A stretch of 64,000 bases of DNA, taken from contig JBAXTZ010000015.1 in NCBI GenBank assembly GCA_037129925.1, positions 1-64,000 of the forward strand. Direction: 5' to 3'. The notes below the pieces were generated by a model, which made no database searches, was not told where the DNA came from, and saw only the letters and a program-made list of their open reading frames with translations. Both the position numbers and the translations under genes were made by a program. This stretch comes from Bacillota bacterium (GTDB lineage Bacteria; Bacillota; Negativicutes; JBAXTZ01). Below, piece after piece: positions 10,842 through 32,478 of this stretch; position 1 is the first letter of the stretch; every line of letters begins with the position of its first letter.

Positions 10842-10845
10842 CGTC

Positions 10846-10872
10846 GCGCAGAATTATTCTGCGCTTTTTTTT
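10846..10872 (+). terminator. Rho-independent terminator
   Basis: Stem gcgcagaa / ttctgcgc with a 3-nt loop, followed by T9. Confidence 0.75.
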
Positions 10873-10939
10873 ATTAGTTTTGCAGGAAATTGAAAATATT
10901 TGCCGAATATATTGCTTATCTTATTTTGGGAGAGAGAAT

Positions 10940-17669: not shown

Positions 17670-17680
17670 TTCCTCGTCGG

Positions 17681-18457
17681 CTATTTGCCCAATTTCGCCA
17701 CTGAATTCACCAACGCCTGCACTGATTTTGTTTCAATTACTACGCTGCAATTCAATTCCGAACTTAACGCTAGAAATTTTCGTAAATCAATCTCGCCCTC
17801 GAAAAATTCCAAATGGCATTTTTCGCCGATAGCATCGTGCAAATGGAAATGAGTGATTTTGTCAGAATACTTTTCAAACACTGCGCTATCAGAATAACCA
17901 GCCGCATGATCATGTCCGACATCCCAAGTCAAAAATACATTGTCGTATTCCAGCAATAATTCCAACGCTTTGCGAATGTGCGGCATAGAAAAATTCCCGG
18001 TGTTTTCAACGCAGATTTTCGCCCGTTTTTCACGGGCAACCGGCAGAATGATTTCCAGCGATTGCTGCAAGTTACGAATAAAATCATCGCAATATTCATC
18101 GTACAGCCATACTTTCTTGTCCGGCAACTTAAAATGAACCCCATTATTCAAATGAATATTCAAAATATCAATCATCCCGGTCGGAACAGCGTTCAAAGTA
18201 TTATTTAGCAAATTGACGAAGCCATTACGAATGTCATCGTGAAACGATGCCAGATCAAGTTCTTCCGGCGCATGGATATTAAACCGCACCCCCTGCTCAG
18301 CAAAATTACGATAGTCAATTTTCGCAAGGTTGGCAACCGAATAATCCGGCAGATTCATGTTCAGTTCAACAAAACTCAGCCCAAGCTGCTTGCATAAAGC
18401 CACCTGCTGTTGCAGGGTTTTTAACTCGATTAATGTTGGCATACCGAAGTGTTGCAT
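17681..18457 (-). CDS. Sugar phosphate isomerase/epimerase (xylose-isomerase-like TIM barrel)
   Basis: 258 aa with metal-binding His/Asp/Glu patterns (NIHAPEE, VENT, WDVGHD, FHLHDA). Confidence 0.6.
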   Translation of the reverse strand: MQHFGMPTLIELKTLQQQVALCKQLGLSFVELNMNLPDYSVANLAKIDYRNFAEQGVRFNIHAPEELDLASFHDDIRNGFVNLLNNTLNAVPTGMIDILNIHLNNGVHFKLPDKKVWLYDEYCDDFIRNLQQSLEIILPVAREKRAKICVENTGNFSMPHIRKALELLLEYDNVFLTWDVGHDHAAGYSDSAVFEKYSDKITHFHLHDAIGEKCHLEFFEGEIDLRKFLALSSELNCSVVIETKSVQALVNSVAKLGK

Positions 18458-18484
18458 AAATTAACTCCTTGTTTAGTCAATAGT

Positions 18485-19294
18485 TCACTGATTACAATCA
18501 ATTGCTCGTTTCAAATTCCGGGAGTGCGTAATCCGGTCCAACAGCCAACCGTCTGAGTGGCGGATGAAGCGCCACTCTTCTTCAAACCGCGTCGGTGCGG
18601 ATTTGTTGCCGTCGACAACTTCGTTCGTCTCTGTGTCAACGGTGTAGTCAATCATCTCGCCGAGGATGTACGCAGTAAAAGCGCTAATACCGTATTTCGG
18701 ATTGGACACCTTGATAATTTCGCACTTTAGCAGCCTGATATCTTTGAGAATGTTGTGCTCATGCTGATTGTCCATATCGCGGTATGAATCCTGCCATTCT
18801 TCCTGCAGCCGCTCCGTCATGCAATCACGCAGACAACGGTTATCATGTTTCGCCCAGGCATCCTGCGCTTTAAAATAAGTATCGGTCACAACCTCAATCA
18901 GATATTGTTTGTCCCAGTTGATATCGGCTGCTGCATGACGTTGCAGCCGAAAATGACTCCACCTGCTTTGCAGTGGCCGGAGCATTTTGGCAACCGTCTG
19001 GCTAGTGCGGGTTTTGTACCAGATATAAAACGCAACCATCAGAAAAAAGATAATTATGAGCAGATAATCAAATGGCGTCCACGGTCCTGTCGAGCCTCCT
19101 GCGCCACCAGCATGTCCGCCAACAAAACCGCCGCCAAAACCGTGCGACCCACCACCGCCGCCATGTCCACCGCCCCCGCCACCGTGACCACCGCCACCGC
19201 CGCGGGCGAAGACAGACGAAGAACTTATTTTTAAAAAACCCAACAGAACCCAAGCATTAACATAGTATCTGATTGTTTTCATTATTTTCACCAT
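18485..19294 (-). CDS. Tim44-like (NTF2-fold) membrane-anchored protein with a Gly/His-rich segment
   Basis: Signal peptide, then GGGGGHGGGGGGHGGGGGSHGFGGG, one TM helix, and a C-terminal Tim44-like region (WRFIRHSDGWLLDRI). Confidence 0.45.
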   Translation of the reverse strand: MVKIMKTIRYYVNAWVLLGFLKISSSSVFARGGGGGHGGGGGGHGGGGGSHGFGGGFVGGHAGGAGGSTGPWTPFDYLLIIIFFLMVAFYIWYKTRTSQTVAKMLRPLQSRWSHFRLQRHAAADINWDKQYLIEVVTDTYFKAQDAWAKHDNRCLRDCMTERLQEEWQDSYRDMDNQHEHNILKDIRLLKCEIIKVSNPKYGISAFTAYILGEMIDYTVDTETNEVVDGNKSAPTRFEEEWRFIRHSDGWLLDRITHSRNLKRAIDCNQ

Positions 19295-19303
19295 TACATA
19301 ATT

Positions 19304-20566
19304 CTATAGCCCGTAGCGAAGAACGACCAGTAACTGCCATATGCCATCCAACGCTACAAAATTTCTCGACCAATTATCTACTTCCACGCCTATCCCCTCA
19401 AAAACCATTTTGCTGGCTTTGTTCTTGTCAGTATCCATTTTCCAAACCACTCCAACAGATTTTGGATAGAAGAACCCGCAACCGCTGTTGGATGTAATCC
19501 AGCCATTGTTGTTTTGCATGCCGGATGCGGCAAAGCCACCGAGACCAAAGCCAAAATAGGCATCAACATCTCCGATATGTATACCAGCCAACCCCTCAAC
19601 TGCTAATGTGCCCAACACCAAATCTGTAGTTATTTCATTATTGCGAGTTGATGCAATTGTATTAGGGAATAATCCATAAAAAAGTGTCGTATAAAATCCT
19701 GCTGTAGCGCGGGCACCAGCATAAAAACCGGGAGCGAGTTCAGTTTCATGGACCAAACCAACACGCACTCCCGCAGGCAAAGGATCAAAACCAACCTCAA
19801 GATAGTTGACGGATGCTTTGCTTTTCGGATCGGTTTTTGCTATTACTTTCTTGTCATCAGTCGACAAAATAGATTCTACTACAGCCAGTTTGGTTTGAGC
19901 TTCTGTTGATTCAGGATTTATTTTCAACACCGACTTATAATCAGCACTGGCTTTTTCGTATTCCCACAGACCATATTCGGCATTGGCTTTTTCCAGCAAC
20001 GCACCTGGCGCGCGCGGGTCTATTTTCAGCGCATCTTCGCAATCTGTCAATGCTTCCGAATACTGCAATAGCAGATTATGTAACCGGGCAAGTTTGATAT
20101 AGGCTTGAGCGTTGGTTTTATCAGCAGCGACAATGACATAAAAGTCTCCCAGCGCAACATAATATTTTTTCATTTCCATATAAGTACAACCGCGATAATA
20201 GCGTGCGTCGTTATTTGCGCCATCTTTCGCAAGCAACATAGAAAAATCTTTTATTGCTGAATCATATTCGCCCAACCAGTAATAAGCTTGTCCGCGGATG
20301 TTCAGCGCTTGAATATTACTAGCATCAATTGCCAAAATGCGATCAGCGAAATTTATCGCGTGACGATAGTTTCCTGCCACTATATTGTCGCGTGCATTTT
20401 CGCAATATTGTGCAATTTTGTTCTGTTGCTCCACAGCATCAATCGTATTGCCGTTTTCGGACACAAAAGCATGATTGGAAAATATTATCAAACATAATGC
20501 CAGTAATATACATGTTCGCAACATACTACCTCCAGAGCCGTCTATCTTCATGATATTGCCAACCAT
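19304..20566 (-). CDS. Secreted TPR-repeat protein
   Basis: 420 aa with a signal peptide and multiple TPR units (AQAYIKLARLHN, YYRGCTYMEMKKYYVALGDF). Confidence 0.6.
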   Translation of the reverse strand: MVGNIMKIDGSGGSMLRTCILLALCLIIFSNHAFVSENGNTIDAVEQQNKIAQYCENARDNIVAGNYRHAINFADRILAIDASNIQALNIRGQAYYWLGEYDSAIKDFSMLLAKDGANNDARYYRGCTYMEMKKYYVALGDFYVIVAADKTNAQAYIKLARLHNLLLQYSEALTDCEDALKIDPRAPGALLEKANAEYGLWEYEKASADYKSVLKINPESTEAQTKLAVVESILSTDDKKVIAKTDPKSKASVNYLEVGFDPLPAGVRVGLVHETELAPGFYAGARATAGFYTTLFYGLFPNTIASTRNNEITTDLVLGTLAVEGLAGIHIGDVDAYFGFGLGGFAASGMQNNNGWITSNSGCGFFYPKSVGVVWKMDTDKNKASKMVFEGIGVEVDNWSRNFVALDGIWQLLVVLRYGL

Positions 20567-20589
20567 TTATTTTTTGTTAGCTTCCGAAG

Positions 20590-22074
20590 CTACATTTCGT
20601 CCCGGTTATTCGCGTCCCGACAAAGATACTTCTTCCACACCGCAAAAACGAGTAAAACCGATGCTACCATCACTAAATCGCTACGCCAACCAGAAACATC
20701 CAGAAAGTATTCCTTTGTTTGTGTTCTGTCCAAAATCGCGAGCGCTTGCGAAAAATTCCAGCCAAACGCTATTCCGATAGCAGCCGCTAGATGCTTGGTC
20801 TTAAATACAGCAAGCACAATAAACATTGCAAATAAATACTGACCAATCCAATCTAATACAGTGTAATAATCAGAGAAGCAAACATTTAAAATCATAAAAA
20901 ATGACGCTACTATGAATGCCGCGCCGTACTTACTAAAGCCTTTTCGCTGAATGCTTGCAACGAAAGAAAACATCCCAATGCCTACAAGAATCGAAGCGGA
21001 CAAATAATAAATAAACGAAAGGCCAAAATATTTCCAGAAATTCACGCCGCTGTAATCAGGAAGATGCGTACTGCTAACAAACGCTAATCTTCCAAGAAAA
21101 CTAAGTGCAAAGACGGCAAATCCTAATAACGTGTATATCAGTAATATTCTCCACGCCCTTTTATTGTCGAAAAACACATAGCTTGGGCTACCGTTCTGAC
21201 GGTGCTCAAACCACATTACACAAATAACGCCACCAGCTATCGCAAACCAGTTCTCACCTAACATCCTAAACAAAGCCAAATATTCCACAGAAGTTTTGCT
21301 GAATTTCAGAACGTCAAAAGTGACTTTTTTTAATCCGAACAGTGAAAAGATCAGACTCACTGCAATACTTATAACAGAAAAAATGACGATAAATAACAGA
21401 CTTTTGCCAATCGCTTTTAATGCAGCCCGGTTATTCTTTTCTGGAACTGCAACCAGCTCATCCTTTGTTGACACTTCAACAGTGTTTTTGCTTATTGCAG
21501 TTTGAACCGAGTTGTTTTGTTCTTCTTCAAATGCTATTTGATTTTTGATTTCTTTTGCCAGTCTGTCATAGACTAAACTAGCCTTTATTCCCTTATAATA
21601 GCAGTAGACAATAAAAAAGATAATAGTAATCTGAATCCAAATTAGTCCGGAGGTCGCGGCAGTTAATCCGGCCAACAACACAATGAACACCAATAACGAC
21701 AGGAACAATGCGGTTTGATATTTGCGATATATACCCCACCCCAGTATCAAAAAAATCAACCCAACCACTATATCGAACATTTGTCCATCACAGTCGTAAA
21801 CAAACCACCAGGCAAGAAACCAATTCATCCAAGCTAAACTCTTCAACTTTGCAATCGCTTCTTTGAGCTGCGCTTTCTTATTCGAACCAAGAATTCGCGC
21901 TTCGGAGTAATCAATCTCCTGACCGCAGCGAACACAGTATATCGCTTGCTGATTTTTTGGTTTTCTGGTTCTTCTATACTCAGAATAAGCAAAAGCAAAA
22001 TAAATCAATGCCGTCACGGCGGCAAAATAATAGCCAGTCACTATGTCCACAATAATTATTCCGACGGCAAACAT
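20590..22074 (-). CDS. Polytopic membrane protein, paralog-family member (distal part; probably one gene with the 22056..22502 ORF)
   Basis: 494 aa. It contains the family motif AIYCVRCGQEIDYSEARILGS about 45 aa from its N-terminus. It overlaps the upstream ORF by 19 nt in a different frame. Confidence 0.5.
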   Translation of the reverse strand: MFAVGIIIVDIVTGYYFAAVTALIYFAFAYSEYRRTRKPKNQQAIYCVRCGQEIDYSEARILGSNKKAQLKEAIAKLKSLAWMNWFLAWWFVYDCDGQMFDIVVGLIFLILGWGIYRKYQTALFLSLLVFIVLLAGLTAATSGLIWIQITIIFFIVYCYYKGIKASLVYDRLAKEIKNQIAFEEEQNNSVQTAISKNTVEVSTKDELVAVPEKNNRAALKAIGKSLLFIVIFSVISIAVSLIFSLFGLKKVTFDVLKFSKTSVEYLALFRMLGENWFAIAGGVICVMWFEHRQNGSPSYVFFDNKRAWRILLIYTLLGFAVFALSFLGRLAFVSSTHLPDYSGVNFWKYFGLSFIYYLSASILVGIGMFSFVASIQRKGFSKYGAAFIVASFFMILNVCFSDYYTVLDWIGQYLFAMFIVLAVFKTKHLAAAIGIAFGWNFSQALAILDRTQTKEYFLDVSGWRSDLVMVASVLLVFAVWKKYLCRDANNRDEM

Positions 22075-22502
22075 TGAAAACAGAACGCAGGCCTCAGAAT
22101 ATTGAATTTTTTATGAAATGCTCCGGCTTTTCGAAACAGCCGTTCACTGACCACCACATTATGATGCTGCAAATCTGCAGTCACACAGTCTTTGCAATAC
22201 ATCAGTAACTCATGCTCAGGATGTTTAAACCTCGAATTAATAAGTATTCCTAGCAAATATACTACACATAGTGTGGTAGCAATGATATTTTTAAATATTA
22301 TCGGTGCGATCACAGCAAACATCGCCAATAGCTCCAACATAATGGTCAACAGCCAATGTTCGGAACTGCAGCTGATTATTTTTAATACACCGTTCGTCGC
22401 CACCGCATTGCAAAAATCATGGCTGGCTGTCATATCGTTGCCGCATTTCTCACAATATAGTGAATTAGAATCAACAACACAGCCGCATTTTATGCAATAC
22501 AC
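22056..22502 (-). CDS. Zinc-ribbon membrane protein, paralog-family member (proximal part)
   Basis: 148 aa. It carries MYCIKCGCVVDSNSLYCEKCGNDMTASHDF, two TM helices and a CKDC motif, co-linear with the first 150 aa of the 15450..17669 protein. Confidence 0.6.
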   Translation of the reverse strand: MYCIKCGCVVDSNSLYCEKCGNDMTASHDFCNAVATNGVLKIISCSSEHWLLTIMLELLAMFAVIAPIIFKNIIATTLCVVYLLGILINSRFKHPEHELLMYCKDCVTADLQHHNVVVSERLFRKAGAFHKKFNILRPAFCFQCLPSE

Positions 22503-22529
22503 GCTTCTCTCCTTTAGCTTGTCATACGA

Positions 22530-22640
22530 TTATTTCTTTTCATCTACAACCGGCGCAGCAATTTCCTTCACGCCCGATTTCTTATCCATCAACGTCGAAA
22601 TATACGCCGTCAGCATACCAATGCCACCGTTGTCGTGCTC
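22530..22640 (-). pseudogene. Remnant of an SPFH/flotillin gene 3' end (duplicate of 27181..27290)
   Basis: About 90% nucleotide identity to the 3' end of the SPFH gene. It would encode ...NGGIGMLTAYISTLMDKKSGVKEIAAPVVDEKK*, versus ...GGMGMLTAYISTLMDKKSGATEIVAPVMDEKK* in the intact gene. Confidence 0.7.
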
Positions 22641-22745
22641 CTAAATCTTCCTTAAATTCCGGATTTAAGTACCTTGAGAGAAAACTTCTGGCAATTCTCC
22701 GCTATCGCTTTGGCCGCATCAGAATCATAAAGTTCGTTATTAATT

Positions 22746-23882
22746 TCATTTAACCAAAAAATCATACCAATTTTTGCGATCAATACATACTACATTCGCA
22801 TTTTCGTAAGCATCCAGAAACTCTTGCGGCGCACGGAACGCCCGCGATGGTGCGCTCCACTTGAATTCATAGCCGTGTAGTTGCCCGTCACGTTCTTCGA
22901 TATAATCAATCTCTTTGCCGGCATGGGTGCGCCAGAAATAACTGTTAACCAAATAATTACAGTTGATGTTGCGTTTCATCCGCTCGGCGATACAGAAATT
23001 TTCCCATAGCGCGCCTTTATCATTGCGCAGTTCCGGCGGCGCAAAATTCTGAATCAGGCTGTTTCGCACGCCGATATCATAGAAGTAAATTTTCTTTTTG
23101 CGACTCAGTTCATTGCGCAGATTTCTTGAAAACGGCGACAAGCGGAAAATCACAAAACACTTTTCCAACAAATCGATATAGTTTTCAACAATAGTCTTGG
23201 AAACTCCCAGCAAACCGCAAAGCTCATTGACCGAAACCTCGCTGCCAATTTGCAGTGCTAGCGCTTGTAATAATTTTAACAGGATTTCCGGCCGCCTGAC
23301 CCGTTCGTGTTCCAATACATCTTTGTATAAATAACCGCCGGTCAATTCATCCAACTCCTGCCGCGCTTCATCATCGCTGCTGGTAAATATTTGCGGATAA
23401 AAGCCAAAGCGCATTATTTTGTCACTCACAGCTTCAAACGGTAATATTTGCACCTGACTCTCAATTTCAGCCAGAGCCAGCGGCGGCAACAAAAAGTGTC
23501 GCGCCCTGCCGGTAAGCGGTTCGCCGGTTTTATTCGCCAGGTCGAAGCTGGACGAACCAGTTGCAATAACCTGAATATCTGGCAGTTCATCCGCGATGAT
23601 CTTCAAAATCATCCCGATGTTTTCTACCCGCTGCGCTTCATCAAGAACAATCAGCCGGTAGTTCCCCAAATAATCCCGCAGTGTTTCTTTATTCTGATTA
23701 GCAAGCGCAATCTGGTTCGGCAATAGGTCACAGTTGATATAACGGCTGGTGCCTGGATGTTTGGCGAGAATCGACTTGACAAGTGTGGTTTTCCCCACGC
23801 GCCGCGCACCAAACAGCACTACAACGCGGCCTTTGAATAATTGTTTCTCAATCTGAACGCCAAGCAATCTTTCAAAAAACAT
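22746..23882 (-). CDS. AAA ATPase, AAA_14 + DUF4143 family
   Basis: 378 aa. It has a Walker A (GARRVGKTT) and Walker B (LIVLDEAQ), and a C-terminal DUF4143-like region. Confidence 0.7.
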   Translation of the reverse strand: MFFERLLGVQIEKQLFKGRVVVLFGARRVGKTTLVKSILAKHPGTSRYINCDLLPNQIALANQNKETLRDYLGNYRLIVLDEAQRVENIGMILKIIADELPDIQVIATGSSSFDLANKTGEPLTGRARHFLLPPLALAEIESQVQILPFEAVSDKIMRFGFYPQIFTSSDDEARQELDELTGGYLYKDVLEHERVRRPEILLKLLQALALQIGSEVSVNELCGLLGVSKTIVENYIDLLEKCFVIFRLSPFSRNLRNELSRKKKIYFYDIGVRNSLIQNFAPPELRNDKGALWENFCIAERMKRNINCNYLVNSYFWRTHAGKEIDYIEERDGQLHGYEFKWSAPSRAFRAPQEFLDAYENANVVCIDRKNWYDFLVK

Positions 23883-23980
23883 TTGTCTTTCTCCGATATT
23901 ATGTCAAATTTGGGATTTATACATCCCGAATTCATTATAATTTAGATCGTTTGATTGTTCAAACAAAATCGCCTGACGGA

Positions 23981-24049
23981 TTACCACCACCGTCGCATTG
24001 CAAAAATCACGGCTGGCGGCTGGTCATTGCCGCATTTCAAGCAATACAT
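23981..24049 (-). pseudogene. 22-aa remnant of a zinc-ribbon family gene 5' end
   Basis: The minus strand reads MYCLKCGNDQPPAVIFAMRRWW*. Its nucleotide sequence matches the conserved 5' ends of the zinc-ribbon paralogs, with an internal deletion fusing the first CxxC to the CGND half-site. Confidence 0.55.
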
Positions 24050-24152
24050 ACAATCTCCATAATTTGATTTGCGTCGCCAACACTTATTTCAAGCTTTCTT
24101 CAGGTAGAACCATAAATTTCCCGCCCGCTTCAAGGTGGTTTTCCAGAAACCA

Positions 24153-25262
24153 TCAAATCTCTTTATCGATAATTATTTTTCGATAGACATCTCGCTTTAG
24201 ATTTTTGTATCGAGCATAAGACTTTAATCCTCGCACATAGGTCAAAACAATAACTGCCTTTAGAAAGATTACACTATTAAAAATATAAACAATGCCGGTC
24301 GCTTTGACCATTACCCAAGCATAAAAAATAACCATAACCAACGAAACTATCATTGCTATTCGGGAAAACTTGGATATTCTCCAAGCTAGCAAACCGAAAA
24401 GTAACGCAGTCACTAATTCAACGACTCTCAGCTGCTCCCCTGATATTAACGCGTAAAACATGAATGCCACATTGAATAGAGCTAAAATCTTCATGTTCCA
24501 CGCTTCATACATACTACTATCCAGTTTGTCTGGATCAATGTATTCAAGACCTTCAAGCGTCACAAATCGACCGCAGGCACAACAATGAGTCGCAACCGCA
24601 TCCTTTTGTATCCGTTGTAATTTTTGACGCTCCAGAGCTTTGAAAGTGGTCAGCATGTTCTTATTATCAAATACCAAATACATCATCAGTAATAAACATG
24701 GTGCATACAATGATAAACTTTGCAAGCTGAAAAGGCTGTCGTAACGCCAGCCATATTTCAAGTTTTCATAAAAAAAATCAAACATTACGACAAAGACTAT
24801 CACCAAATATTCTAAATTGCTTTTGTATGAATATAAATTGTCGTAATACCATTCAACATATTTTTTCTCAACATTAATAATATTTTTTGCCACAGCCCCG
24901 CTCAATTTGCTTTTAAAACAATCCGGGCAGACCATCAGCGGCTCTTGAAACCTTAGTTTTCCACGCGATACAACCGCCAGCAATATCACCAAATACACGG
25001 TTAGGAGTATCGAAAGATAAACATTGATATAACACCAATTCAGAATCAATGCGCCAATTGCGCTGAAAATAATCCATTTCTTTTCAGCACTCTTATGCTT
25101 TACAGTAGTGTACATTTCACTTGGCGTTGAAATCAGAAATTTTTCCAGGCATCGCTTAGCGACTCGCAAATCGGTTCCGCACTGAACACAATTAATTGCT
25201 TCAACTGAATTTTCACTTCCACATTCAGGACAATACATACCGCACCTCATCAAACTTGTCAA
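24153..25262 (-). CDS. Zinc-ribbon polytopic membrane protein (paralog family)
   Basis: 369 aa. It carries MYCPECGSENSVEAINCVQCGTDL, a CPDC motif and CCACGRFVTLEGLEYIDPD between TM helices. Confidence 0.6.
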   Translation of the reverse strand: MTSLMRCGMYCPECGSENSVEAINCVQCGTDLRVAKRCLEKFLISTPSEMYTTVKHKSAEKKWIIFSAIGALILNWCYINVYLSILLTVYLVILLAVVSRGKLRFQEPLMVCPDCFKSKLSGAVAKNIINVEKKYVEWYYDNLYSYKSNLEYLVIVFVVMFDFFYENLKYGWRYDSLFSLQSLSLYAPCLLLMMYLVFDNKNMLTTFKALERQKLQRIQKDAVATHCCACGRFVTLEGLEYIDPDKLDSSMYEAWNMKILALFNVAFMFYALISGEQLRVVELVTALLFGLLAWRISKFSRIAMIVSLVMVIFYAWVMVKATGIVYIFNSVIFLKAVIVLTYVRGLKSYARYKNLKRDVYRKIIIDKEI

Positions 25263-25280
25263 CTCTGGCTGTCCATAACA

Positions 25281-27155
25281 TTACCCGTTCTCTGACGCAT
25301 TGATCTTTTTAATCCGCCCAGCTGCCTGCCATGCAACCGAGTACACCGTAATCGGAATAAGAAACAGCGCCAACTCCAGATAATATTCTGGATGATGTAT
25401 TATTATTCCGATGTCGAAATAATCACGGACAAACGTGTACGCAAGGAAGGCAGCCGAAGCTACAACACAAATCCTCATTCTGCGACAGATTCCAAACGCC
25501 GCCACTAAAAACAACGCTGCAACCAGATAATAGAAGTCGAATATTCCCACACGCTCATAGACTGCCGCAACAATATACCACGTCGCATATACCACGTTGA
25601 ACAGTATCGCCGGTATCAGCAACTGTTTGTTTTGCCGGAATTGCAGTTCATGTTGCTCTGATTCGGTTAATTGCGGAAACAACAGCTTATATTCTAGTAG
25701 TGCCTTGATGGCAGCTATCCCCGCGACCGCTCCTATCGCCGTGAATGCAACACCGAAGATTAAAGCTTTTGGATGAAAGACCTGAATCGATCCAACAAGC
25801 AGGATTAAATAAGTTGGTAATAGCGCGTATGCGCTTAATTTGCTTTTCTGCAACAAGCCAATATTTGTAATCATCAACAAACTTACAGCAAAGAAAAATA
25901 AGGTGTCCGAAAACTGCCTGCTCCAGAAATACATCAAGCAGGCGCAAACGGTGAGAATGAAATAATTTATCCGGACAGTTTTTTCGACATCCCTTGAACA
26001 ACGAGTTGCTTTACTGTAAACACTGTCAATGGCGTTTTCTCTAGTGCTTCCCATGGCGCTCTTTGCGTTCCCGCTATACCATAACGCTTTGATCGCCCGA
26101 TAGTAGCCAACAGCCATAGCAACTGTCAACGATAGTTCCAATGGCAGGTTTCCTTTTATTGCAAAACTTACCGCCATCAATAAAAATATAATCAAGAATA
26201 CAACCGCGGAAATAGCAACACAAACCCGCTTACGGCGATAAATACCAAAACCGCAAGCGGCGATTATTGCAGCAATACCAATTTCCAGAATATCAACCTT
26301 TACGAAGACCGACAGTAATATCCATACAGCTATGCCCCAGTGTGCATAAGCCAAAAATCGCGTCTCGTTGCCTTTTTCGGAATCATCCGTTTCGCTCGCA
26401 CCATCAACTTCTGTTTCCTCTGTTTCTTGAATGTCGTCAATTCCTGATTCTTTCTTTTTGCGCTCGATGCTGCTTTCCAAATCGTTCAGTTTGCAAAGAC
26501 TACCCGCTTCCGAATAATCTGCTGGCATACCGCACTTCATACAGTATAGCGCGAGCATCTCTTCATATCTTTTGGAGTTTTTCCGATATAAATACAGATA
26601 CGCAAAAAACAACAGCCCCGGCAACGCGTCTAAAAAGTATTCTTCTATAAAAAGTGTTATGATTGGCAAGTGATTATAAAAATATGTGGTTACAATAATC
26701 ACAAATACTATTGGCAGAATAATTCCCAAAATTGACACATTGCCGCTGCACTTCGAATACAAATTGCGCCAGTCGCTCAGGTTTGATGCGATGTCGCTAT
26801 TCGCGACACCGCATCTTTTCAATTCGACCACAGCACAGTTCGGACATAATAGAAGCGGATAGTATCCCGGCAATTTGTTCAAAACGGCGAGAAACGCCAA
26901 AACCAACATGCCAAGACAATAGCACAACGACACAATTTCGTTGTGTGCTAACCAGGGAACGATTACCGCCGAGGCTGCGATTGCCACCACCACTAATCTT
27001 GTTGTGCAGTTTTTTTTGTTTACGCGCAACATATCTGCAACATTAACTGAATCCGCTGTCTCATAGTATGTACGCTGTTCAGCCAATGCATAGCCGCACT
27101 TCGAACAACTAAGACTCATATAGCTGGTGCTAGCGCCGCATTTTATGCAATACAT
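25281..27155 (-). CDS. Zinc-ribbon polytopic membrane protein, apparent full-length family member
   Basis: 624 aa. It carries MYCIKCGASTSYMSLSCSKCGYAL, CPNC and YCMKCGMPADYSEAGS motifs and an acidic loop (ETEETEVDGASETDDSE). Its C-terminal module is homologous to the separate 15009..15401 ORF. Confidence 0.65.
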   Translation of the reverse strand: MYCIKCGASTSYMSLSCSKCGYALAEQRTYYETADSVNVADMLRVNKKNCTTRLVVVAIAASAVIVPWLAHNEIVSLCYCLGMLVLAFLAVLNKLPGYYPLLLCPNCAVVELKRCGVANSDIASNLSDWRNLYSKCSGNVSILGIILPIVFVIIVTTYFYNHLPIITLFIEEYFLDALPGLLFFAYLYLYRKNSKRYEEMLALYCMKCGMPADYSEAGSLCKLNDLESSIERKKKESGIDDIQETEETEVDGASETDDSEKGNETRFLAYAHWGIAVWILLSVFVKVDILEIGIAAIIAACGFGIYRRKRVCVAISAVVFLIIFLLMAVSFAIKGNLPLELSLTVAMAVGYYRAIKALWYSGNAKSAMGSTRENAIDSVYSKATRCSRDVEKTVRINYFILTVCACLMYFWSRQFSDTLFFFAVSLLMITNIGLLQKSKLSAYALLPTYLILLVGSIQVFHPKALIFGVAFTAIGAVAGIAAIKALLEYKLLFPQLTESEQHELQFRQNKQLLIPAILFNVVYATWYIVAAVYERVGIFDFYYLVAALFLVAAFGICRRMRICVVASAAFLAYTFVRDYFDIGIIIHHPEYYLELALFLIPITVYSVAWQAAGRIKKINASENG

Positions 27156-27180
27156 TTTTCCTCACACCATCCGAATCAGA

Positions 27181-29280
27181 TTATTTCTTTTCGTCCATAA
27201 CCGGCGCAACAATTTCCGTCGCGCCCGATTTCTTATCCATCAGCGTCGAAATATACGCCGTCAGCATCCCCATGCCACCCTCTTGTCCTTGCACGAGAAT
27301 GTCCGGCACGATTTTTATATTACTGTCGGAGATGCGTTTGAACACTTCGATTACGGTAACATTTTCCGGCGATATTGCTTCGCACTGTTTGCGGTAGGCT
27401 TCGGCGGTCGAGTTACCGATGGCGAGGATTTTCTGGGCCTCGGCGTCACCGATGGCTTTGATTCCGGCGGCTTCACCTTCGGCGGTTAGTTTTCTGGATT
27501 CCTTGGCGCCCTCGGCTTTTTTGATCGACGACAGTTTTTCCTGTTCGGCTATTTTCACGCCGATTTCGGCTTGCATAAGATTCTTTTGCTGATCAGCTTC
27601 GGCGCGGGATTTCTCAGTCGCAATCCGGGTTTGCTCGGCGAGTTGCTGTTCCTTGTACATTTCCTTGCGCTGCTCGGCGATAATCCGCATGGTCTGGGTT
27701 TCCATCAATTCCTGCGGCAACTGAATCTGACAGATCAGCACCGAAACACACTCCACATGATAATCGGTCAACTCCTGACGCGCATGTAATTCGGCTTTTT
27801 TCTGTTCCTCCTGCCGGTCTTGCAGGAAGCTCATGGCTTTGGTCGATGACGCCTGGTTACGGAACGACGAGTCAATCATCGGATGAATAACATGGTCGAT
27901 GAGATTTTCTACCGAGCCGATTTTTGCCACCATGTACGGCGCCTGATCCGGACGCACCCGGATAATTACTTTCACCGATACCATAATCAGGAAGCCGTCT
28001 TTAGATGTAACTTGCAACGAATTGAATTTGGTGTCCTTATCGTTGTCGTTCCAGTCGATTGTGATATTGGTAGTGTTTACAACGTATGGAATAAATGCCA
28101 GCGGATTGAGATAGTATATTCCCGGCCCGACTACTTCGCGCTGAATACCGCGATAGCCCTGCGGCACTACATAGCGCTCGATACCCGGCAACAACTGAAC
28201 TTCCGGCTTGCCTGCTTCCGTTCCCATTTCGGTTTGATCCGGTTCCCGGCCGACATTGGAAACGATTACTGCGACCTCGCCGCGTTCAACCTTGGCAACA
28301 TTATGCAACTGAACGGAAAACATGTAGGGATTGATATAGTAAGTACCGGGGCGCAGAACTTCCAATTGCGGTCCACGCTGACCGCCTGCGTTCAGAAAAG
28401 CCGAAGCATTCTGGAAATTATCATGTTCACAGACACTGGCAGCAACATATTCGTTGGGCGGCAATTCCTTACCGTCCAGCGCTGTAACCAAACCGACCTT
28501 TTCCGAAGGCACGATCAGCGCATCAGCTACCGCTACCACAAACAATGAAGTGTTCACCCGATAGGTTCCGGGAAACATGATGTTAATTTGCGGGCCTTTT
28601 TGGCCGCCCGCTGCCAGGAAAGTTTCGCCGTCCTGAAAGGACTTGTGTCCTTCCACGCTCTTGGCCAATAACCGGCCGCTGTCAATCGGCAATCCGTCCA
28701 TCGCCGTCACAATTCCGATTTTACCTTTGGGGATATGCAGCGAATTAATCTTGTTTACGCGAAACAACACCGGGTTTATCCGATATTGTCCCGGTGTCAG
28801 ATATTCAATCTGTGGACCTTTCTGACCACCGTTGTTGAGAAACGCCTCGGCATCTTGAAACGAATTGTGACCGCTGATAACCTTGGCAAATATTCGGTCC
28901 GGCGGTAGTGATTCGCCGTCAATTGCTTCGACCAAACCGACTTCGTCTTCGGCAATTTCTACGAAACCACTTTTATTGGTTACGTACAAAAACGGTATCA
29001 GAAAATGCAAGCCCGGTCCCAAAGTTTTCGCGCGTACGCCGACCTCACTGTTACGGGCTACAACCTGACCGCTGGGCATTTTTTTACCGAACCAACGGCG
29101 CTCAATGATTGCAATCTGACGGCCGTTGACCACCACGATAGAATTTCTTATGATGATCAACAGCACAATCAACGCTACAACCACCCAGATAATCGTGAAG
29201 ATTGTTGACAATGAGAGTGTTCCATTAAGTAGTGATGACATTTTTTCCTCCTCGAATTTTATTAATCCTTCCATAGCCAA
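27181..29280 (-). CDS. SPFH/band-7 (flotillin/YqiK-like) membrane protein with a triplicated N-terminal repeat
   Basis: 699 aa. An N-terminal TM helix is followed by three ~75-aa repeats (HNSFQDAEAFLNNGGQKGPQ / HKSFQDGETFLAAGGQKGPQ / HDNFQNASAFLNAGGQRGPQ), an SPFH core, and a flotillin-like EA-rich coiled coil. Confidence 0.8.
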   Translation of the reverse strand: MAMEGLIKFEEEKMSSLLNGTLSLSTIFTIIWVVVALIVLLIIIRNSIVVVNGRQIAIIERRWFGKKMPSGQVVARNSEVGVRAKTLGPGLHFLIPFLYVTNKSGFVEIAEDEVGLVEAIDGESLPPDRIFAKVISGHNSFQDAEAFLNNGGQKGPQIEYLTPGQYRINPVLFRVNKINSLHIPKGKIGIVTAMDGLPIDSGRLLAKSVEGHKSFQDGETFLAAGGQKGPQINIMFPGTYRVNTSLFVVAVADALIVPSEKVGLVTALDGKELPPNEYVAASVCEHDNFQNASAFLNAGGQRGPQLEVLRPGTYYINPYMFSVQLHNVAKVERGEVAVIVSNVGREPDQTEMGTEAGKPEVQLLPGIERYVVPQGYRGIQREVVGPGIYYLNPLAFIPYVVNTTNITIDWNDNDKDTKFNSLQVTSKDGFLIMVSVKVIIRVRPDQAPYMVAKIGSVENLIDHVIHPMIDSSFRNQASSTKAMSFLQDRQEEQKKAELHARQELTDYHVECVSVLICQIQLPQELMETQTMRIIAEQRKEMYKEQQLAEQTRIATEKSRAEADQQKNLMQAEIGVKIAEQEKLSSIKKAEGAKESRKLTAEGEAAGIKAIGDAEAQKILAIGNSTAEAYRKQCEAISPENVTVIEVFKRISDSNIKIVPDILVQGQEGGMGMLTAYISTLMDKKSGATEIVAPVMDEKK

Positions 29281-29297
29281 AATATTAAGGTTTTTAT

Positions 29298-30695
29298 CTA
29301 TAGTTCACAAAGCGCCAGCAACCATAGCGGTACGACTGAAACGGCGCCAGCCAGCCGAAATTCCCGCTTGCTGACCATAAGTGCTTCGGGCGCGGCAAAT
29401 TCGGTGGCGAATGCATTCAACCCGCGCAGGTCTTTGGTAGTCACTTCATTGCGATATTTTGTTTCTACCGGAACCAGCCGGTTGCGTTTGCAAATCACCG
29501 CATCCACCTCGTATGTCTTTTCGCGCCAATAATATGTCTTGAAGAATTTCTTCTCGGCATAGTCCACTGCCATCCGGGCAACAACGGTTTCAGCGAGCAT
29601 TCCCTCGCGAACGGAGTCGAATTCCGTCTCCCGCACAATGGCATTCCGCAATCCATTGTCAATCACAAATATTTTTCGGTTTTTCCGGATGACTTTTCCG
29701 GTATTTGGCGAATAATTTTCCAAAGAGCACAGCAAACAGGCGCGTTCTAAATAACCGGCATAATTCATCGCAGTTATTGTTTCTACACCGACGGTTTGCC
29801 CAATCGATGCCCAGGAAAACGCCTGACCGTTGTTTGCTGCAACATAAGCTATAATTCTTTCGAGTACCAACGGGCTTTTTACATCAAAGAAACTTACAAT
29901 ATCCCGATACAGACCCGATGCCAAAATATCCACAGCCAGACGGTTTTGCCATAGGTCGATATTCTTGTGTTCAAAGTATTCCGGATATCCGCCTGCCAAT
30001 AAATATTCCTGCAACAAATTAGTTGTCTGGTTTTCAAATAATGATAATTTGAGATAATCAGGCGCGATCGTCTGATAGAAAGCCGCCGGGCTGTCGAAAC
30101 AGCAGGGAGCGACTACTTCTGGCAGCGCTTCGGACTGCTTATACCGGCTGTGAAAACGTGCGAACTGCCGGAAATTCAGCGGAAATATATGCAAGTAATC
30201 GATTCTGCCCAAAAGCGATTCTTTAGCGCCTTCGAACAAGTGTGCTGCCGAAGAACCACTAACTACAAATTTTATATCGAACTGTTTGTCGTAATAACTC
30301 TTGATATAGGTTTGCCAGCCAGTAAGTTGATGCACTTCATCAATAAACACGTAGATCTTGGCGCTCAACATCCGGACATCTTCACCAACTATTTCGCGTA
30401 AAAACAGCTCAATTACAGTTGCCAAATCGTTCTTGGCATTGAAAATCAGCGGATCGTCACCGCTAAACAGCAAAATCCGTCGCGGTTCAATACCGGACGC
30501 AATGAGTTTTTGGATCGCCTGAAAAATCAGCGTCGATTTACCAACCCGGCGCGGCCCGCTGATTGCCAGGATCCGCCGCTCGCTAAAATGCGTTTGAATA
30601 TCTTGCAGTTCGGAGCGTTCAATTTTGTCAGCCAACTCTTTGTTTGGCGGTAACCCAACCCACCACGGATTGCTGCGCGCTAAAAATTCCAACAT
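29298..30695 (-). CDS. AAA ATPase, AAA_14 + DUF4143 family
   Basis: 465 aa. It has a Walker A (GPRRVGKST) and Walker B (VFIDEVHQ), and a DUF4143-like C-terminal domain. Confidence 0.7.
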   Translation of the reverse strand: MLEFLARSNPWWVGLPPNKELADKIERSELQDIQTHFSERRILAISGPRRVGKSTLIFQAIQKLIASGIEPRRILLFSGDDPLIFNAKNDLATVIELFLREIVGEDVRMLSAKIYVFIDEVHQLTGWQTYIKSYYDKQFDIKFVVSGSSAAHLFEGAKESLLGRIDYLHIFPLNFRQFARFHSRYKQSEALPEVVAPCCFDSPAAFYQTIAPDYLKLSLFENQTTNLLQEYLLAGGYPEYFEHKNIDLWQNRLAVDILASGLYRDIVSFFDVKSPLVLERIIAYVAANNGQAFSWASIGQTVGVETITAMNYAGYLERACLLCSLENYSPNTGKVIRKNRKIFVIDNGLRNAIVRETEFDSVREGMLAETVVARMAVDYAEKKFFKTYYWREKTYEVDAVICKRNRLVPVETKYRNEVTTKDLRGLNAFATEFAAPEALMVSKREFRLAGAVSVVPLWLLALCEL

Positions 30696-30858
30696 CTCAA
30701 TACCGCCTTTTTGTCTAGTGTACTACACATATTTTACGTTTTTTGTGTAGCGCAGTCAACATAATCGCGAATTTGGTCGTAACAGTCAGTCTGAACTGTG
30801 CAATTCATACTCAATTCCAATCTGAACTTCTTGTAATATTGAATTGCGATATGCCTCA

Positions 30859-32478
30859 TTATTCACTTAATTTTGCATCGCCATATGGCTGACTGGCCGG
30901 TGAATTTTCAATCAAAATCAAATACTGTCCAACTGTGCTTGCCGCTGGATTGCTGGTACGTTCAGCATAATCAAAATCCCGAATCACCGTATATGCCGGA
31001 ATTTCGAAAAACGGAGAGTGAGCTGAGTTTAACTTAAACAGTGTCAATTTTCCGAGACTGTTGTTTGTGAAAGGATCAATATATGTTGATTCCTCTTTCC
31101 CACTGTAATATTTGCCATTGACGGAATACATTCCATAACTATCCTTCGACAAAGAGTTGCAGACGATAACTTTTCCCTTCACAGGTGACAGCGGCTCATC
31201 AGCAATCATTTCTGCGAATCGGGCGCTATTCGGAGTTTTTAGAATTGTATGATAACTGCCGAACTGTCCACACCATTTTTCGCCCGGATATTTGGCAATA
31301 TTGCGCATAAAGCTAGTAAACATAAAATTATCGCGTAAATCGCTGACGTCCTGTTCCCGGGCATAAAAATCATAGGCTTGCTTGCAAGCGTCCACAATCA
31401 GGGAAGTCTCAAACCATTTATCACCCAGCATAGTTCGATACAACCCAGCGTGTTCTGAATTCATGTCGGCCTGTAATATTTCGATCGCTTCCCGGCCATT
31501 GTTATCATCTGTGACGCTGCGAACCGTAGCGACATTCTGGGCAATCGGCGCCGGAATACTATCACAAGCCAGCAATTCATTGAGACAAGCAAATCCGGTA
31601 GAAAGCTGATGCTGGACATCGAGACCGGCTATACACAGCTTGCTGTTCGGCGGCAGGTTGTCATTATAAATTTTCAGTTTTAACCAGAATTCATAGTTGT
31701 CCTTGTTATACGCCGATGTTTCACAATAATTTGCGAACACCAGCTTGAGCGCAGCCGTATCCCCAGTGCGCAGAAATTTATTATAGTAGTAACTGTCTGC
31801 CGGTCCCATCTCCATAAGTATTCGCTGAATTCCGGCTTTCTCATTGAAATATTTGATCGCAGCTAATTCCAGCTCATAGGCTTCGCGTGTACCGTGAAAT
31901 TCACCCAACAGAAACACGCGGTTCGTAACAATATCGCTATCCATCAACTTAAACCCGCTCTGAGCGATGCTATCCGACGCGCCGATCTTCCCACGATTCT
32001 TTGACAGATACTCACTAACAAGTTCTTGCTGATTATTCCACCAGCTATTTTCACTAACTGCTTTCTTAATGATATTATTGTCTTTGCGCGATGACTGATA
32101 AAATTGTTTCGTTTGTGCGTCAAATACAATCCAGTTCATATCCTGATAAGGATCGCTGCTTACAAATCCCTGATCGAAATTCAACTTGTAAAATTCGCCA
32201 GTAGTGTCAGCCTGGTGATAGCGGACATTTTTATAATCGACATACTTAAGCAGATGATATTCACCGGGCGAGGTTATTAATAGCCGGGCTATTCCCTGCG
32301 CGTCGGCGACATAGCTTTTGGTGACTCCGTCAGGAAATTGAAGATACCAGGTAATTCCGGCAATCGGTTGATTATCCGCCGGAGACAACGCATACAAATC
32401 CAGTTCACCGGCACTAACCATAGCGGTACCGATGCTGATTGCAAATATTAGTAACATTGACGCTAACAGTTTTTTCAT
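30859..32478 (-). CDS. Secreted protein with a C-terminal erythromycin-esterase/ChaN-like domain
   Basis: 539 aa with a signal peptide. LLGEFHGTREAYELELAAIKYF resembles the Ere/ChaN family motif GEATHGT.EF. Confidence 0.35.
   Translation of the reverse strand: MKKLLASMLLIFAISIGTAMVSAGELDLYALSPADNQPIAGITWYLQFPDGVTKSYVADAQGIARLLITSPGEYHLLKYVDYKNVRYHQADTTGEFYKLNFDQGFVSSDPYQDMNWIVFDAQTKQFYQSSRKDNNIIKKAVSENSWWNNQQELVSEYLSKNRGKIGASDSIAQSGFKLMDSDIVTNRVFLLGEFHGTREAYELELAAIKYFNEKAGIQRILMEMGPADSYYYNKFLRTGDTAALKLVFANYCETSAYNKDNYEFWLKLKIYNDNLPPNSKLCIAGLDVQHQLSTGFACLNELLACDSIPAPIAQNVATVRSVTDDNNGREAIEILQADMNSEHAGLYRTMLGDKWFETSLIVDACKQAYDFYAREQDVSDLRDNFMFTSFMRNIAKYPGEKWCGQFGSYHTILKTPNSARFAEMIADEPLSPVKGKVIVCNSLSKDSYGMYSVNGKYYSGKEESTYIDPFTNNSLGKLTLFKLNSAHSPFFEIPAYTVIRDFDYAERTSNPAASTVGQYLILIENSPASQPYGDAKLSE

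What the first reader, a model, noticed from the sequence alone, without database searches (positions are those of the whole stretch)
22530..22640. Truncated duplicate of the SPFH gene 3' end beside the decayed cassette
The 110 nt at 22530-22640 are about 90% identical to 27181-27290 (the last 33 codons plus the stop of the SPFH gene). They retain an in-frame ...GMLTAYISTLMDKKSG...DEKK*. They sit in the same position relative to a zinc-ribbon gene as the intact SPFH does relative to the 25281 gene. This is direct evidence that the cassette was duplicated as a unit and that most of the SPFH gene was then deleted, possibly when the DUF4143 ATPase gene 22746..23882 was acquired.
Basis: seen in the sequence. 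Interest (0 to 1): 0.55.

Follow-up and report, generated by a model that had tools for sequence, protein, structure and literature searches.

The report
Leftover SPFH gene tail beside insertion
This is a real 99-base leftover of the end of an SPFH membrane-scaffold gene, stranded when about 4.65 kb of extra genes came to lie between that gene and its original downstream partner; it is an ordinary genomic scar that helps date and map the rearrangement.

Summary
Window 22530-22628 (- strand: 32 codons plus stop) matches the 3' end of the intact SPFH gene (27181-27279) at 90/99 bases. No other place in the window exceeds 47/101. The match ends at 22628/27279, not 22640/27290.

In a related strain (L028) a full SPFH gene is followed directly by a 637-aa zinc-ribbon membrane gene, a TPR gene and a Tim44-like gene. 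That block aligns colinearly with window 22625-18506. So the fragment is the tail of an SPFH gene that once headed this operon.

The two "cassettes" are not copies from one duplication:
- The two zinc-ribbon genes share about 25% of residues, and the two DUF4143 ATPases 22%.
- Each zinc-ribbon type sits alone behind a full SPFH gene in some relative.
- The fragment is only 9% diverged from the intact tail.

The best reading is a 4,651-bp block (two zinc-ribbon genes, a second small gene relic, a PDC-S01-type ATPase) bounded by about 148-nt direct repeats. The fragment is the displaced, non-functional repeat.

This is a known kind of scar and of low interest. The recombining, lineage-specific zinc-ribbon gene family around it is mildly interesting.

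The parts
22530..22628 (-). SPFH 3'-end relic: 32 codons plus stop, with no start codon and an in-frame stop just upstream
   Evidence: 90/99 identical to 27181-27279. It is colinear with the 3' end of the full SPFH gene of L028.
22482..22628 (-). Downstream direct repeat (DR2): the relic, the canonical 27-nt intergenic region with its ribosome-binding site, and the first 21 nt of the type-B zinc-ribbon ORF
   Evidence: blastn gives 82% over 148 nt against 27135-27279. Its intergenic region matches those of L027 and L028.
27135..27279 (-). Upstream direct repeat (DR1): the 3' end of the intact SPFH gene, a divergent 25-nt intergenic region, and the first 21 nt of the type-A zinc-ribbon ORF
27181..29280 (-). 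Intact SPFH/Band 7 gene, YqiK-like, with three internal N-terminal repeats. The probable start is the ATG at 29241, giving 686 aa.
   Evidence: Pfam PF01145, E 1.8e-25. The 686-aa form is identical to P0121 / MEI6286091.1. dN/dS is 0.02-0.03 against relatives.
25281..27155 (-). Za: type-A zinc-ribbon polytopic membrane protein, 624 aa
   Evidence: It shares 25-27% of residues with Zb. L027 carries the same type behind its SPFH gene. Only 4 relatives were found among 1.84 billion representatives.
24153..25262 (-). Zc: a third zinc-ribbon membrane paralogue. The ORF is 369 aa; the probable start is at 25238, giving 361 aa.
   Evidence: Pfam zinc-ribbon hits. It is 24% identical to Za. The 361-aa form is called as a gene in 5 contigs.
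23988..24049 (-). z'b: relic of the 5' end of a type-B zinc-ribbon gene. It is frameshifted and lacks the 42 nt between the two YCxKCG knuckles.
   Evidence: 81% to 22404-22457. 91% to L028 12143-12187.
22746..23882 (-). ATP378: AAA_14 + DUF4143 ATPase of the PADLOC candidate-defence type PDC-S01. A promoter-like site lies upstream at 23962-23934.
   Evidence: Pfam. PADLOC PDLC04789, E 8.6e-144. The nearest homologue outside this strain is 66% identical. Promoter scan.
22629..22745 (-). 117-nt spacer between the ATPase stop codon and the relic. It matches nothing in the relatives.
20590..22502 (-). Zb: type-B zinc-ribbon membrane gene, split into 148-aa and 494-aa ORFs by a 1-nt deletion near 22095. 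It starts with GTG.
   Evidence: 82% nt identity, with a single gap, to the intact 637-aa gene of L028. The same frameshift is present in L032, L033 and L036.
18485..20566 (-). Intact TPR gene (19304-20566) and Tim44-like gene (18485-19294), the rest of the ancestral operon
   Evidence: Pfam. Colinear with L028 14023-16091. dN/dS is 0.24 and 0.12.
29298..30695 (-). ATP465: a second, distantly related PDC-S01-type ATPase directly upstream of SPFH
   Evidence: Pfam and PADLOC. It is 22% identical to ATP378. L019 keeps only its last 46 codons.

Best explanation
The fragment is a non-functional scar. It is the original, or displaced, 3' end of an SPFH gene that once ran directly into the operon Zb (zinc-ribbon membrane protein), TPR, Tim44-like, as it still does in strain L028.

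A 4,651-bp block now lies between the intact SPFH body and that tail. The block holds a replacement SPFH tail with its own intergenic region, the paralogous zinc-ribbon genes Za and Zc, a small relic of a Zb-type 5' end, and a horizontally mobile PDC-S01-type ATPase gene with its own promoter. It is bounded by two direct repeats of about 148 nt, DR1 at 27279-27135 and DR2 at 22628-22482.

The event was an insertion or rearrangement that duplicated only the SPFH-tail/zinc-ribbon-start junction, not a duplication of whole cassettes. Three mechanisms fit and cannot be told apart here:
- recombination anchored in SPFH homology on one side with an illegitimate join on the other;
- single-crossover integration of a circle that carried the tail;
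- template switching during replication.

Shown: the homology, its breakpoints, colinearity with L028, the uneven divergence, and the reality of the structure. Inferred: the direction of the event (insertion rather than deletion), the mechanism, and the lack of function.
For: 1. L028 11966-16091 aligns as one block (80.4%, 4,145 nt) to window 22625-18506. This runs from the SPFH tail through Zb, TPR and Tim44-like.
2. The intergenic region behind the relic is the canonical one shared by L027 and L028. The one behind the window's intact SPFH gene is divergent.
3. Type A (L027) and type B (L028) zinc-ribbon genes each follow a full SPFH gene directly. They diverge right after a shared ATGTATTGCATAAAATGCGGC.
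4. Za and Zb share 25-27% of residues and ATP378 and ATP465 share 22%. The relic differs from the intact tail at only 9 of 99 bases. SPFH dS between strains is 0.52-0.94.
5. The relic differs from the window SPFH tail at 9 positions, from L019 at 10, and from L027 and L028 at 16 and 15. It therefore groups by lineage, not with the SPFH copy linked to Zb in L028.
6. ATP378 has no homologue above 66% identity outside this strain. Published work reports that PDC-S01 genes are frequently transferred (PMC12988326).
7. A second, independent case exists in relative L034. There a 96-nt, 95.8% direct repeat of a gene's 3' end flanks a 1.75-kb insertion.
8. The structure is identical in four other assemblies.
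9. Displacement that leaves a piece of the conserved upstream gene is a documented pattern (PMC5361080).
Against: - Only five related haplotypes were recovered. The Za-type relatives (L027, L029-31) end at an IS right after the Za 5' end, so the putative donor arrangement has not been seen.
- The insert contains its own Zb-type 5' relic. This forces either a donor with a prior rearrangement or a two-step history.
- L028 carries a relic of an ATP378-like 5' end about 2 kb downstream of its operon. The ATPase may therefore be an old resident of the neighbourhood rather than foreign.
- Deletion-type 3' relics also occur at this locus: L019 keeps 46 codons of ATP465. A deleted second SPFH copy cannot be excluded.
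- The dN/dS on 32 codons (0.078/0.177) is too noisy to prove neutrality.
Confidence: 0.62

Rival explanations
1. A whole SPFH/zinc-ribbon cassette, perhaps with an upstream ATPase, was duplicated in tandem. The second SPFH copy then lost its first ~1,960 nt by deletion, possibly when the ATPase gene arrived, leaving only the tail.
For: - Gene order repeats: ATPase, SPFH, zinc-ribbon gene, then ATPase, SPFH tail, zinc-ribbon gene.
- Deletions that leave 3' relics do occur here: the ATP465 tail in L019.
- L028 has a zinc-ribbon-tail-like 88-aa ORF upstream of its SPFH gene, which hints at older tandem units.
Against: - The supposed co-duplicated partners are 22-27% identical, while the SPFH tails are 91% identical.
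- No relative has two SPFH genes.
- The relic groups with its own genome's SPFH tail, not with the L028 copy linked to the same zinc-ribbon type.
- The 117-nt spacer has no similarity to the SPFH 5' end or its upstream region.
Confidence: 0.22
2. The fragment is kept because it does something. It could be a homology handle that lets RecA delete the 4.65-kb block and re-fuse SPFH to Zb, switching cassettes as orphan modules do in Rhs/CDI loci. It could also supply an internal promoter, or a 28-codon upstream ORF (MLTAY...EKK) that supports expression of Zb-TPR-Tim44.
For: - The reading frame has no stops or indels over 32 codons.
- Exact runs of 24 and 21 nt are shared with the intact gene.
- The ribosome-binding region behind the relic is canonical.
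- A weak promoter-like site lies at 22627-22599.
- TPR and Tim44-like remain under purifying selection and need to be transcribed.
- Zinc-ribbon 5' ends visibly recombine in this lineage: the L034 chimera and the z'b deletion.
Against: - Three substitutions are unique to the relic, including Met to Ile at a position invariant in the other four close copies compared.
- The relic's dN/dS against the intact tail is about 0.44, compared with 0.02-0.03 for the gene as a whole.
- The gene it would reactivate is frameshifted.
- The promoter match is 9/12 and no better than shuffled sequence gives.
- No pop-out haplotype was found among contigs of this strain.
- An intact frame over 99 nt with 9 substitutions is expected by chance.
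Confidence: 0.1
3. The tandem arrangement is a metagenome mis-assembly that joins two strains at a shared repeat, or the similarity is due to chance.
For: - The source is a MAG contig.
- Related strains with either zinc-ribbon type exist.
- Contigs from three samples end at 24081 or 24044, next to the block.
Against: - Identity is 92/101 against a background maximum of 47/101.
- The relic is preceded by unique sequence. A repeat-mediated chimera would switch inside the repeat and would not create a truncated copy.
- Independent assemblies from other runs cover the ATPase-spacer-relic-Zb stretch at 100% identity.
Confidence: 0.02

Closest known systems
Displaced 3' ends and orphan modules in polymorphic loci: Rhs C-terminal displacement, CDI orphan cdiA-CT/cdiI, and the Vibrio cholerae T6SS effector-immunity arrays described as 'sequential displacement' (PMC5361080)
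   Same: - A new module arrives attached to homology with the conserved upstream gene.
- The old downstream gene is pushed back but kept, still preceded by a stub of the conserved gene.
- Alternative downstream types occupy the same position in different strains.
- Homology-facilitated illegitimate recombination is the proposed route.
   Different: - Nothing here looks like a toxin or an immunity protein.
- The conserved gene is an SPFH scaffold, and the variable unit is a separate downstream gene rather than the C-terminus of the same protein.
- There is only one stub, not an array.
- The displaced gene is frameshifted.
attL/attR repeats of integrative elements that insert into the 3' end of a gene and bring a replacement 3' end with them
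   Same: - Direct repeats bound the insert.
- The target gene stays intact because the insert supplies a new tail.
- The original tail is left at the far end.
   Different: - There is no integrase, transposase or other recombinase in or next to the 4.65-kb block.
- The repeats are 91% identical and about 100-148 nt long, not an exact core.
Ordinary gene remnants left by deletion, for example the ATP465 3' relic upstream of SPFH in strain L019
   Same: A short in-frame 3' piece of a gene with no start codon and a sharp breakpoint.
   Different: For the L019 relic the full gene is seen at the same place in a relative. For the SPFH relic, the full gene at the orthologous place (L028) is that genome's only SPFH copy.

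Membership tests
Gene remnant (truncated pseudogene fragment) | Significant nucleotide similarity to part of an intact gene | tested here: met
   92/101 identical against a background maximum of 47/101; E about 1e-32
Gene remnant (truncated pseudogene fragment) | Lacks the rest of the gene and a usable start, with a sharp breakpoint | tested here: met
   Homology begins at GGTGGC (22628). An in-frame TAG lies six codons upstream of that point.
Gene remnant (truncated pseudogene fragment) | A full-length gene occupies the orthologous position in a relative | tested here: met
   L028 has SPFH 10001-12061 followed by Zb-TPR-Tim44, colinear with window 22625-18506.
Gene remnant (truncated pseudogene fragment) | Evolves without purifying selection | tested here: inconclusive
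   dN 0.078 and dS 0.177 on 32 codons. Three substitutions are unique to the relic and three to the intact tail. The sites are too few.
Orphan or displaced modules of polymorphic toxin loci (Rhs/CDI/T6SS effector-immunity) | A stub of the conserved upstream gene precedes the displaced downstream gene | tested here: met
Orphan or displaced modules of polymorphic toxin loci (Rhs/CDI/T6SS effector-immunity) | Alternative downstream types at the same position in different strains | tested here: met
   Type A in L027 and type B in L028, both directly behind SPFH
Orphan or displaced modules of polymorphic toxin loci (Rhs/CDI/T6SS effector-immunity) | The variable genes encode toxin domains and cognate immunity proteins | tested here: not met
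   Pfam, NCBIfam and PADLOC give only zinc-ribbon hits for Za, Zb and Zc.
Orphan or displaced modules of polymorphic toxin loci (Rhs/CDI/T6SS effector-immunity) | Recombination between the stub and the main gene switches the expressed module | not testable with these tools
   This needs read-level or experimental data. No pop-out contig was found.
Integrase-borne island in the 3' end of a gene | Direct repeats flank the insert, one of them inside the intact target gene | tested here: met
   DR1 27279-27135 and DR2 22628-22482
Integrase-borne island in the 3' end of a gene | A site-specific recombinase gene in or beside the insert | tested here: not met
   None of the ORFs from 18485 to 32478 has a recombinase domain. 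There are no terminal inverted repeats.
PADLOC PDC-S01 (AAA_14 + DUF4143 ATPase), for gene 22746-23882 | Full-length match to the family profile | tested here: met
   PDLC04789, E 8.6e-144, residues 1-376. Pfam AAA_14 plus DUF4143.
PADLOC PDC-S01 (AAA_14 + DUF4143 ATPase), for gene 22746-23882 | Protects against phage | not testable with these tools
SPFH/Band 7 (YqiK-like), for gene 27181-29280 | Band_7 domain above the Pfam gathering score | tested here: met
   PF01145, 90.5 bits against a cut-off of 23.6. JGI names homologues YqiK/HflC-like.

The most novel reading that the evidence does not exclude
The conserved SPFH tail, together with the near-identical first 21 nt of the zinc-ribbon ORFs, could act as a recombination handle for a lineage-specific set of swappable zinc-ribbon membrane partners of an SPFH scaffold (Za, Zb, Zc, Zd). 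In that reading the stub and its frameshifted gene are a stored alternative cassette. The design would be analogous to orphan modules of polymorphic toxin loci but would operate on a membrane-microdomain system, in a variable region that also collects three ATPase-nuclease candidate defence genes.
Probability: 0.08. Interest if true: 0.55.

Novelty: new member of a known kind. Interest (0 to 1): 0.22.

Why it matters
The scar gives a dated, breakpoint-resolved record of how a variable region in an uncultivated Bacillota lineage is built. A candidate defence ATPase and two lineage-specific membrane-protein genes were placed inside a conserved operon without disrupting its SPFH gene, and roughly 100-150 nt of the junction was duplicated.

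A second example in a relative (a 96-nt repeat in L034) suggests this is a recurrent mode of gene gain in the lineage. For annotation, it means two things:
- 22530-22628 should be marked as a pseudogene fragment.
- 22502-20590 should be marked as one frameshifted gene rather than two ORFs.

It does not open a new biological question by itself.

Tried and rejected
1. **A third SPFH-tail relic upstream of the z'b relic (24051-24152).** Local alignment scores equal those of shuffled sequence. Rejected.
2. **An IS or MITE carrying ATP378.** There are no terminal inverted repeats and no transposase or integrase. The two AT-rich hairpins on either side of the gene (22650-22668, 23907-23932) resemble each other only at 12/14 nt, which is chance level.
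3. **A structured RNA in or near the relic.** No Rfam match in 18000-31000 apart from a sub-threshold NiCo hit inside ATP465.
4. **The antisense ORF 22192-22644 (+, 150 aa) as a real gene.** It lies opposite a region that is coding on the - strand in L028 and L034. Not pursued.
5. **More haplotypes from JGI metagenomes.** A degenerate 32-nt SPFH-tail pattern gave 0 hits. A Zb protein scan gave one locus, L034.
6. **The genome collection.** It holds no close relative; the best SPFH hit is 63% identical. Distant SPFH homologues there lack zinc-ribbon neighbours.
7. **A homologue search with Za.** It found only Za itself. The exhaustive search found 4 proteins.
8. **A crossover signature inside the repeat.** Relic-unique changes lie at columns 11, 39 and 86. 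Changes unique to the intact tail lie at 64, 84 and 89, and its intergenic region is divergent. This is compatible with a single crossover near columns 40-64, but six sites are too few to claim it.
9. **A mosaic break inside the SPFH gene.** Sliding identity against L019, L027 and L028 shows no clear break.

Full report
**Observation**

All genes in the region are on the - strand. Window 22528-22628 and 27179-27279 form an ungapped 101-nt repeat of 91% identity. blastn extends the match to 22482-22628 vs 27135-27279, 82% over 148 nt, E about 1e-32. Sliding the 101-mer over both strands of the window gives 92/101 at the fragment and at most 47/101 elsewhere.

The fragment keeps the frame NGGIGMLTAYISTLMDKKSGVKEIAAPVVDEKK*. 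The intact gene reads EGGMGMLTAYISTLMDKKSGATEIVAPVMDEKK*. An in-frame TAG lies six codons upstream of the first shared glycine codon, GGT. It resumes after a poorly conserved intergenic stretch, in the first 21 nt of the two downstream ORFs.

The structure is identical in four other assemblies, including two other sequencing runs.

**Anatomy of the region**

Read along the - strand, the order is:
- ATP465 (30695-29298; AAA_14 + DUF4143)
- SPFH (29280-27181; Band_7)
- Za (27155-25281; 624-aa zinc-ribbon membrane protein)
- Zc (25262-24153)
- z'b, a short relic of a zinc-ribbon gene 5' end (24049-23988)
- ATP378 (23882-22746; AAA_14 + DUF4143)
- a 117-nt spacer
- the SPFH relic (22628-22530)
- Zb (22502-20590, read as 148-aa and 494-aa ORFs)
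- TPR (20566-19304)
- Tim44-like (19294-18485)

Both ATPases match PADLOC's candidate system PDC-S01; ATP378 does so at E 8.6e-144. PDC-S01 is described as a very common, frequently transferred and not yet validated ATPase/PD-(D/E)XK candidate (PMC12988326). ATP378 has a promoter-like TTGAAC-17-TATAAT site at 23962-23934. No recombinase, transposase or terminal inverted repeat is present.

**Source and relatives**

The SPFH protein equals MEI6286091.1 from a 'Bacillota bacterium' MAG, on a contig of 67,859 nt. Contigs carrying other members of the same 90% protein cluster give four related haplotypes. A scan of JGI metagenomes adds a fifth, L034, which has no SPFH gene in the stretch fetched.
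- **L019** is syntenic at 85-91% nt identity. Unrelated genes follow its SPFH gene, and it keeps only the last 46 codons of ATP465 upstream.
- **L027 and L029-31** have SPFH followed by the 5' end of a Za-type gene, then an IS and the end of the contig.
- **L028** has SPFH, then an intact 637-aa zinc-ribbon gene, then TPR, then Tim44-like.
- **L034** has an intact Zb-type gene elsewhere in a syntenic region.

**What the fragment is**

L028 11966-16091 aligns as a single block (80.4%, 4,145 nt) with window 22625-18506. The block runs from the last 32 codons of SPFH through Zb, TPR and Tim44-like. The window's 148-aa and 494-aa ORFs are one orthologue of the L028 637-aa gene, broken by a single 1-nt deletion near 22095.

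The intergenic region behind the relic (TAATCGTATGACAAGCTAAAGGAGAGAAGCGTG) is the canonical one, also seen in L027 and L028. The one behind the window's intact SPFH gene is divergent. The fragment is therefore the tail of an SPFH gene that once headed the Zb-TPR-Tim44 operon.

**Why 'the cassette was duplicated as a unit' fails**

- Za and Zb share 25-27% of residues, Zc and Za 24%, and ATP378 and ATP465 22%. There is no DNA similarity beyond the shared ATGTATTGCATAAAATGCGGC.
- The relic differs from the intact tail at only 9 of 99 positions.
- SPFH dS between the window and L019, L027 and L028 is 0.52, 0.75 and 0.94, with dN/dS of 0.02-0.03. A freely evolving stub only 9% diverged must be younger than these strain splits. 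The zinc-ribbon paralogues are far older.
- The two zinc-ribbon types are alternative occupants of the same position behind SPFH: type A in L027 and type B in L028.
- The relic's tail differs from the window SPFH at 9 positions and from L019 at 10, but from L027 and L028 at 16 and 15. It groups by lineage, not by linked zinc-ribbon type.

What was duplicated is only the junction, about 148 nt. It bounds a 4,651-bp block (27279 to 22629).

**Most likely history and mechanism (inferred)**

An L028-like operon SPFH-Zb-TPR-Tim44 acquired, 99 nt before the SPFH stop codon, a block with a replacement tail, Za, Zc, z'b and ATP378. Three routes fit:
- recombination anchored in SPFH homology on one side and illegitimate on the other, as proposed for displaced modules in T6SS and Rhs loci (PMC5361080);
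- single-crossover integration of a circle carrying the tail;
- template switching.

The distribution of unique substitutions is compatible with a crossover inside the repeat, but it rests on six sites.

Two observations complicate a one-step story. The block contains its own Zb-type 5' relic, which is 91% identical to L028 Zb and has a 42-nt deletion between the two YCxKCG knuckles. L028 also carries an ATP378-like 5' relic about 2 kb downstream of its operon. A deleted full second SPFH copy cannot be excluded, because L019 shows that deletion relics occur here, but nothing requires one.

A second case in L034 suggests that duplication of a gene's 3' end around inserts recurs in this lineage. 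There, a 96-nt, 95.8% direct repeat of the AP_endonuc_2 gene's 3' end flanks a 1.75-kb insertion with a 515-aa gene.

**Function**

Nothing indicates that the fragment is functional.
- It has no start codon.
- It carries a Met-to-Ile change at a position invariant in the other four close copies compared.
- Its dN/dS against the intact tail is about 0.44, compared with 0.02-0.03 for the whole gene.
- Its only promoter-like match is weak.
- No Rfam family matches.

Its practical effects are passive. It preserves the canonical ribosome-binding region in front of Zb. It also leaves 24-nt and 21-nt exact matches to the intact gene, which could occasionally mediate loss of the 4.65-kb block. No such haplotype was found.

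**Context worth noting**

The zinc-ribbon membrane family is essentially confined to this lineage. A word-indexed search with Za found only Za itself. An exhaustive search of 1.84 billion representatives found four proteins.

The window has four members plus a relic: Za, Zc, Zb, z'b and Zd (17669-15450; DUF975 plus zinc ribbon). Their conserved 5' zinc-ribbon codons are visible recombination points:
- the A/B switch point;
- the z'b internal deletion;
- a chimeric L034 gene with the Zd leader and the Zb body.

Three ATPase-nuclease genes lie within 12 kb. The most novel reading still allowed is a cassette-swapping design for SPFH partners. I put it at about 8%.

**Verdict**

This is a real, well-delimited gene relic and a known kind of scar. 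Interest is low, at about 0.2.

Noticed in passing
window 23988-24049 (-): A second small relic lies directly upstream of the ATP378 promoter region. It is the 5' end of a type-B zinc-ribbon gene (MYCLKCGND...), frameshifted, and lacks the 42 nt between the two YCxKCG knuckles.
   Followed up: yes
window 20590-22502 (-), near 22095: The 148-aa and 494-aa ORFs are one 637-aa gene broken by a 1-nt deletion in an A-rich stretch. The same break is seen in the other assemblies. dN/dS against L028 (0.19-0.31) suggests the break is recent.
   Followed up: yes
L034 6015-6110 and 7860-7955: A 96-nt, 95.8% direct repeat of the 3' end of the AP_endonuc_2 gene flanks a 1.75-kb insertion that carries a 515-aa secreted-looking protein (weak PEGA hit). 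This is the same kind of scar as the SPFH relic, in another strain.
   Followed up: partly
L034 7977-9914; window 17578-17780: The L034 zinc-ribbon gene is a chimera. Its upstream region and MKTIMDRK leader match the window's Zd gene (15450-17669), while its body is Zb-type. The junction lies inside the zinc-ribbon codons.
   Followed up: partly
L019 9802-9939: L019 keeps only the last 46 codons of ATP465 (91% aa identity) in front of SPFH. It lacks the 539-aa gene and the rest of the ATPase, so this is a deletion-type 3' relic at the same locus.
   Followed up: partly
L028 9663-9929 and 18036-18210: An 88-aa ORF just upstream of the L028 SPFH gene resembles the C-terminal end of Zb (32% over 65 aa). 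A relic of an ATP378-like promoter and first 35 codons lies about 2 kb downstream of the operon, next to a Phage_rep_org_N gene.
   Followed up: no
window 32719-34413 (-), 29298-30695 (-), 22746-23882 (-): Three ATPase-nuclease fusion genes lie within 12 kb: AAA-ATPase_like + PDDEXK_9, and two AAA_14 + DUF4143 genes of PDC-S01 type. Relatives carry different genes at these positions, so this looks like a variable, defence-island-like stretch.
   Followed up: partly
window 24044 and 24081 (ends of L037, L038, L039): Contigs from three different samples that carry Za and Zc at 99.96-100% identity all stop within about 35 nt of the z'b relic. This may mark a strain-level polymorphism or an assembly break at that point.
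   Followed up: no
window 27156-27180: The 25-nt intergenic region between the window's intact SPFH gene and Za differs strongly from the one shared by L027, L028 and the relic. Its origin is unknown.
   Followed up: no
window 28340-28941 (-): The SPFH protein has three internal N-terminal repeats of about 75 aa (...GGQKGPQ...PG.YRINP...), visible as DNA self-similarity of 58-63%.
   Followed up: no
L027 12437-12628; L029, L030: In the Za-type strains an IS (HTH_Tnp_1 transposase) follows a 106-aa truncated Za ORF. All their contigs end there.
   Followed up: no
window 18485-19294 (-): The Tim44-like protein has an N-terminal Gly/His-rich low-complexity stretch (GGGGGHGGGGGGHGGGGGSHG...) between a signal-like segment and a transmembrane segment.
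   Followed up: no
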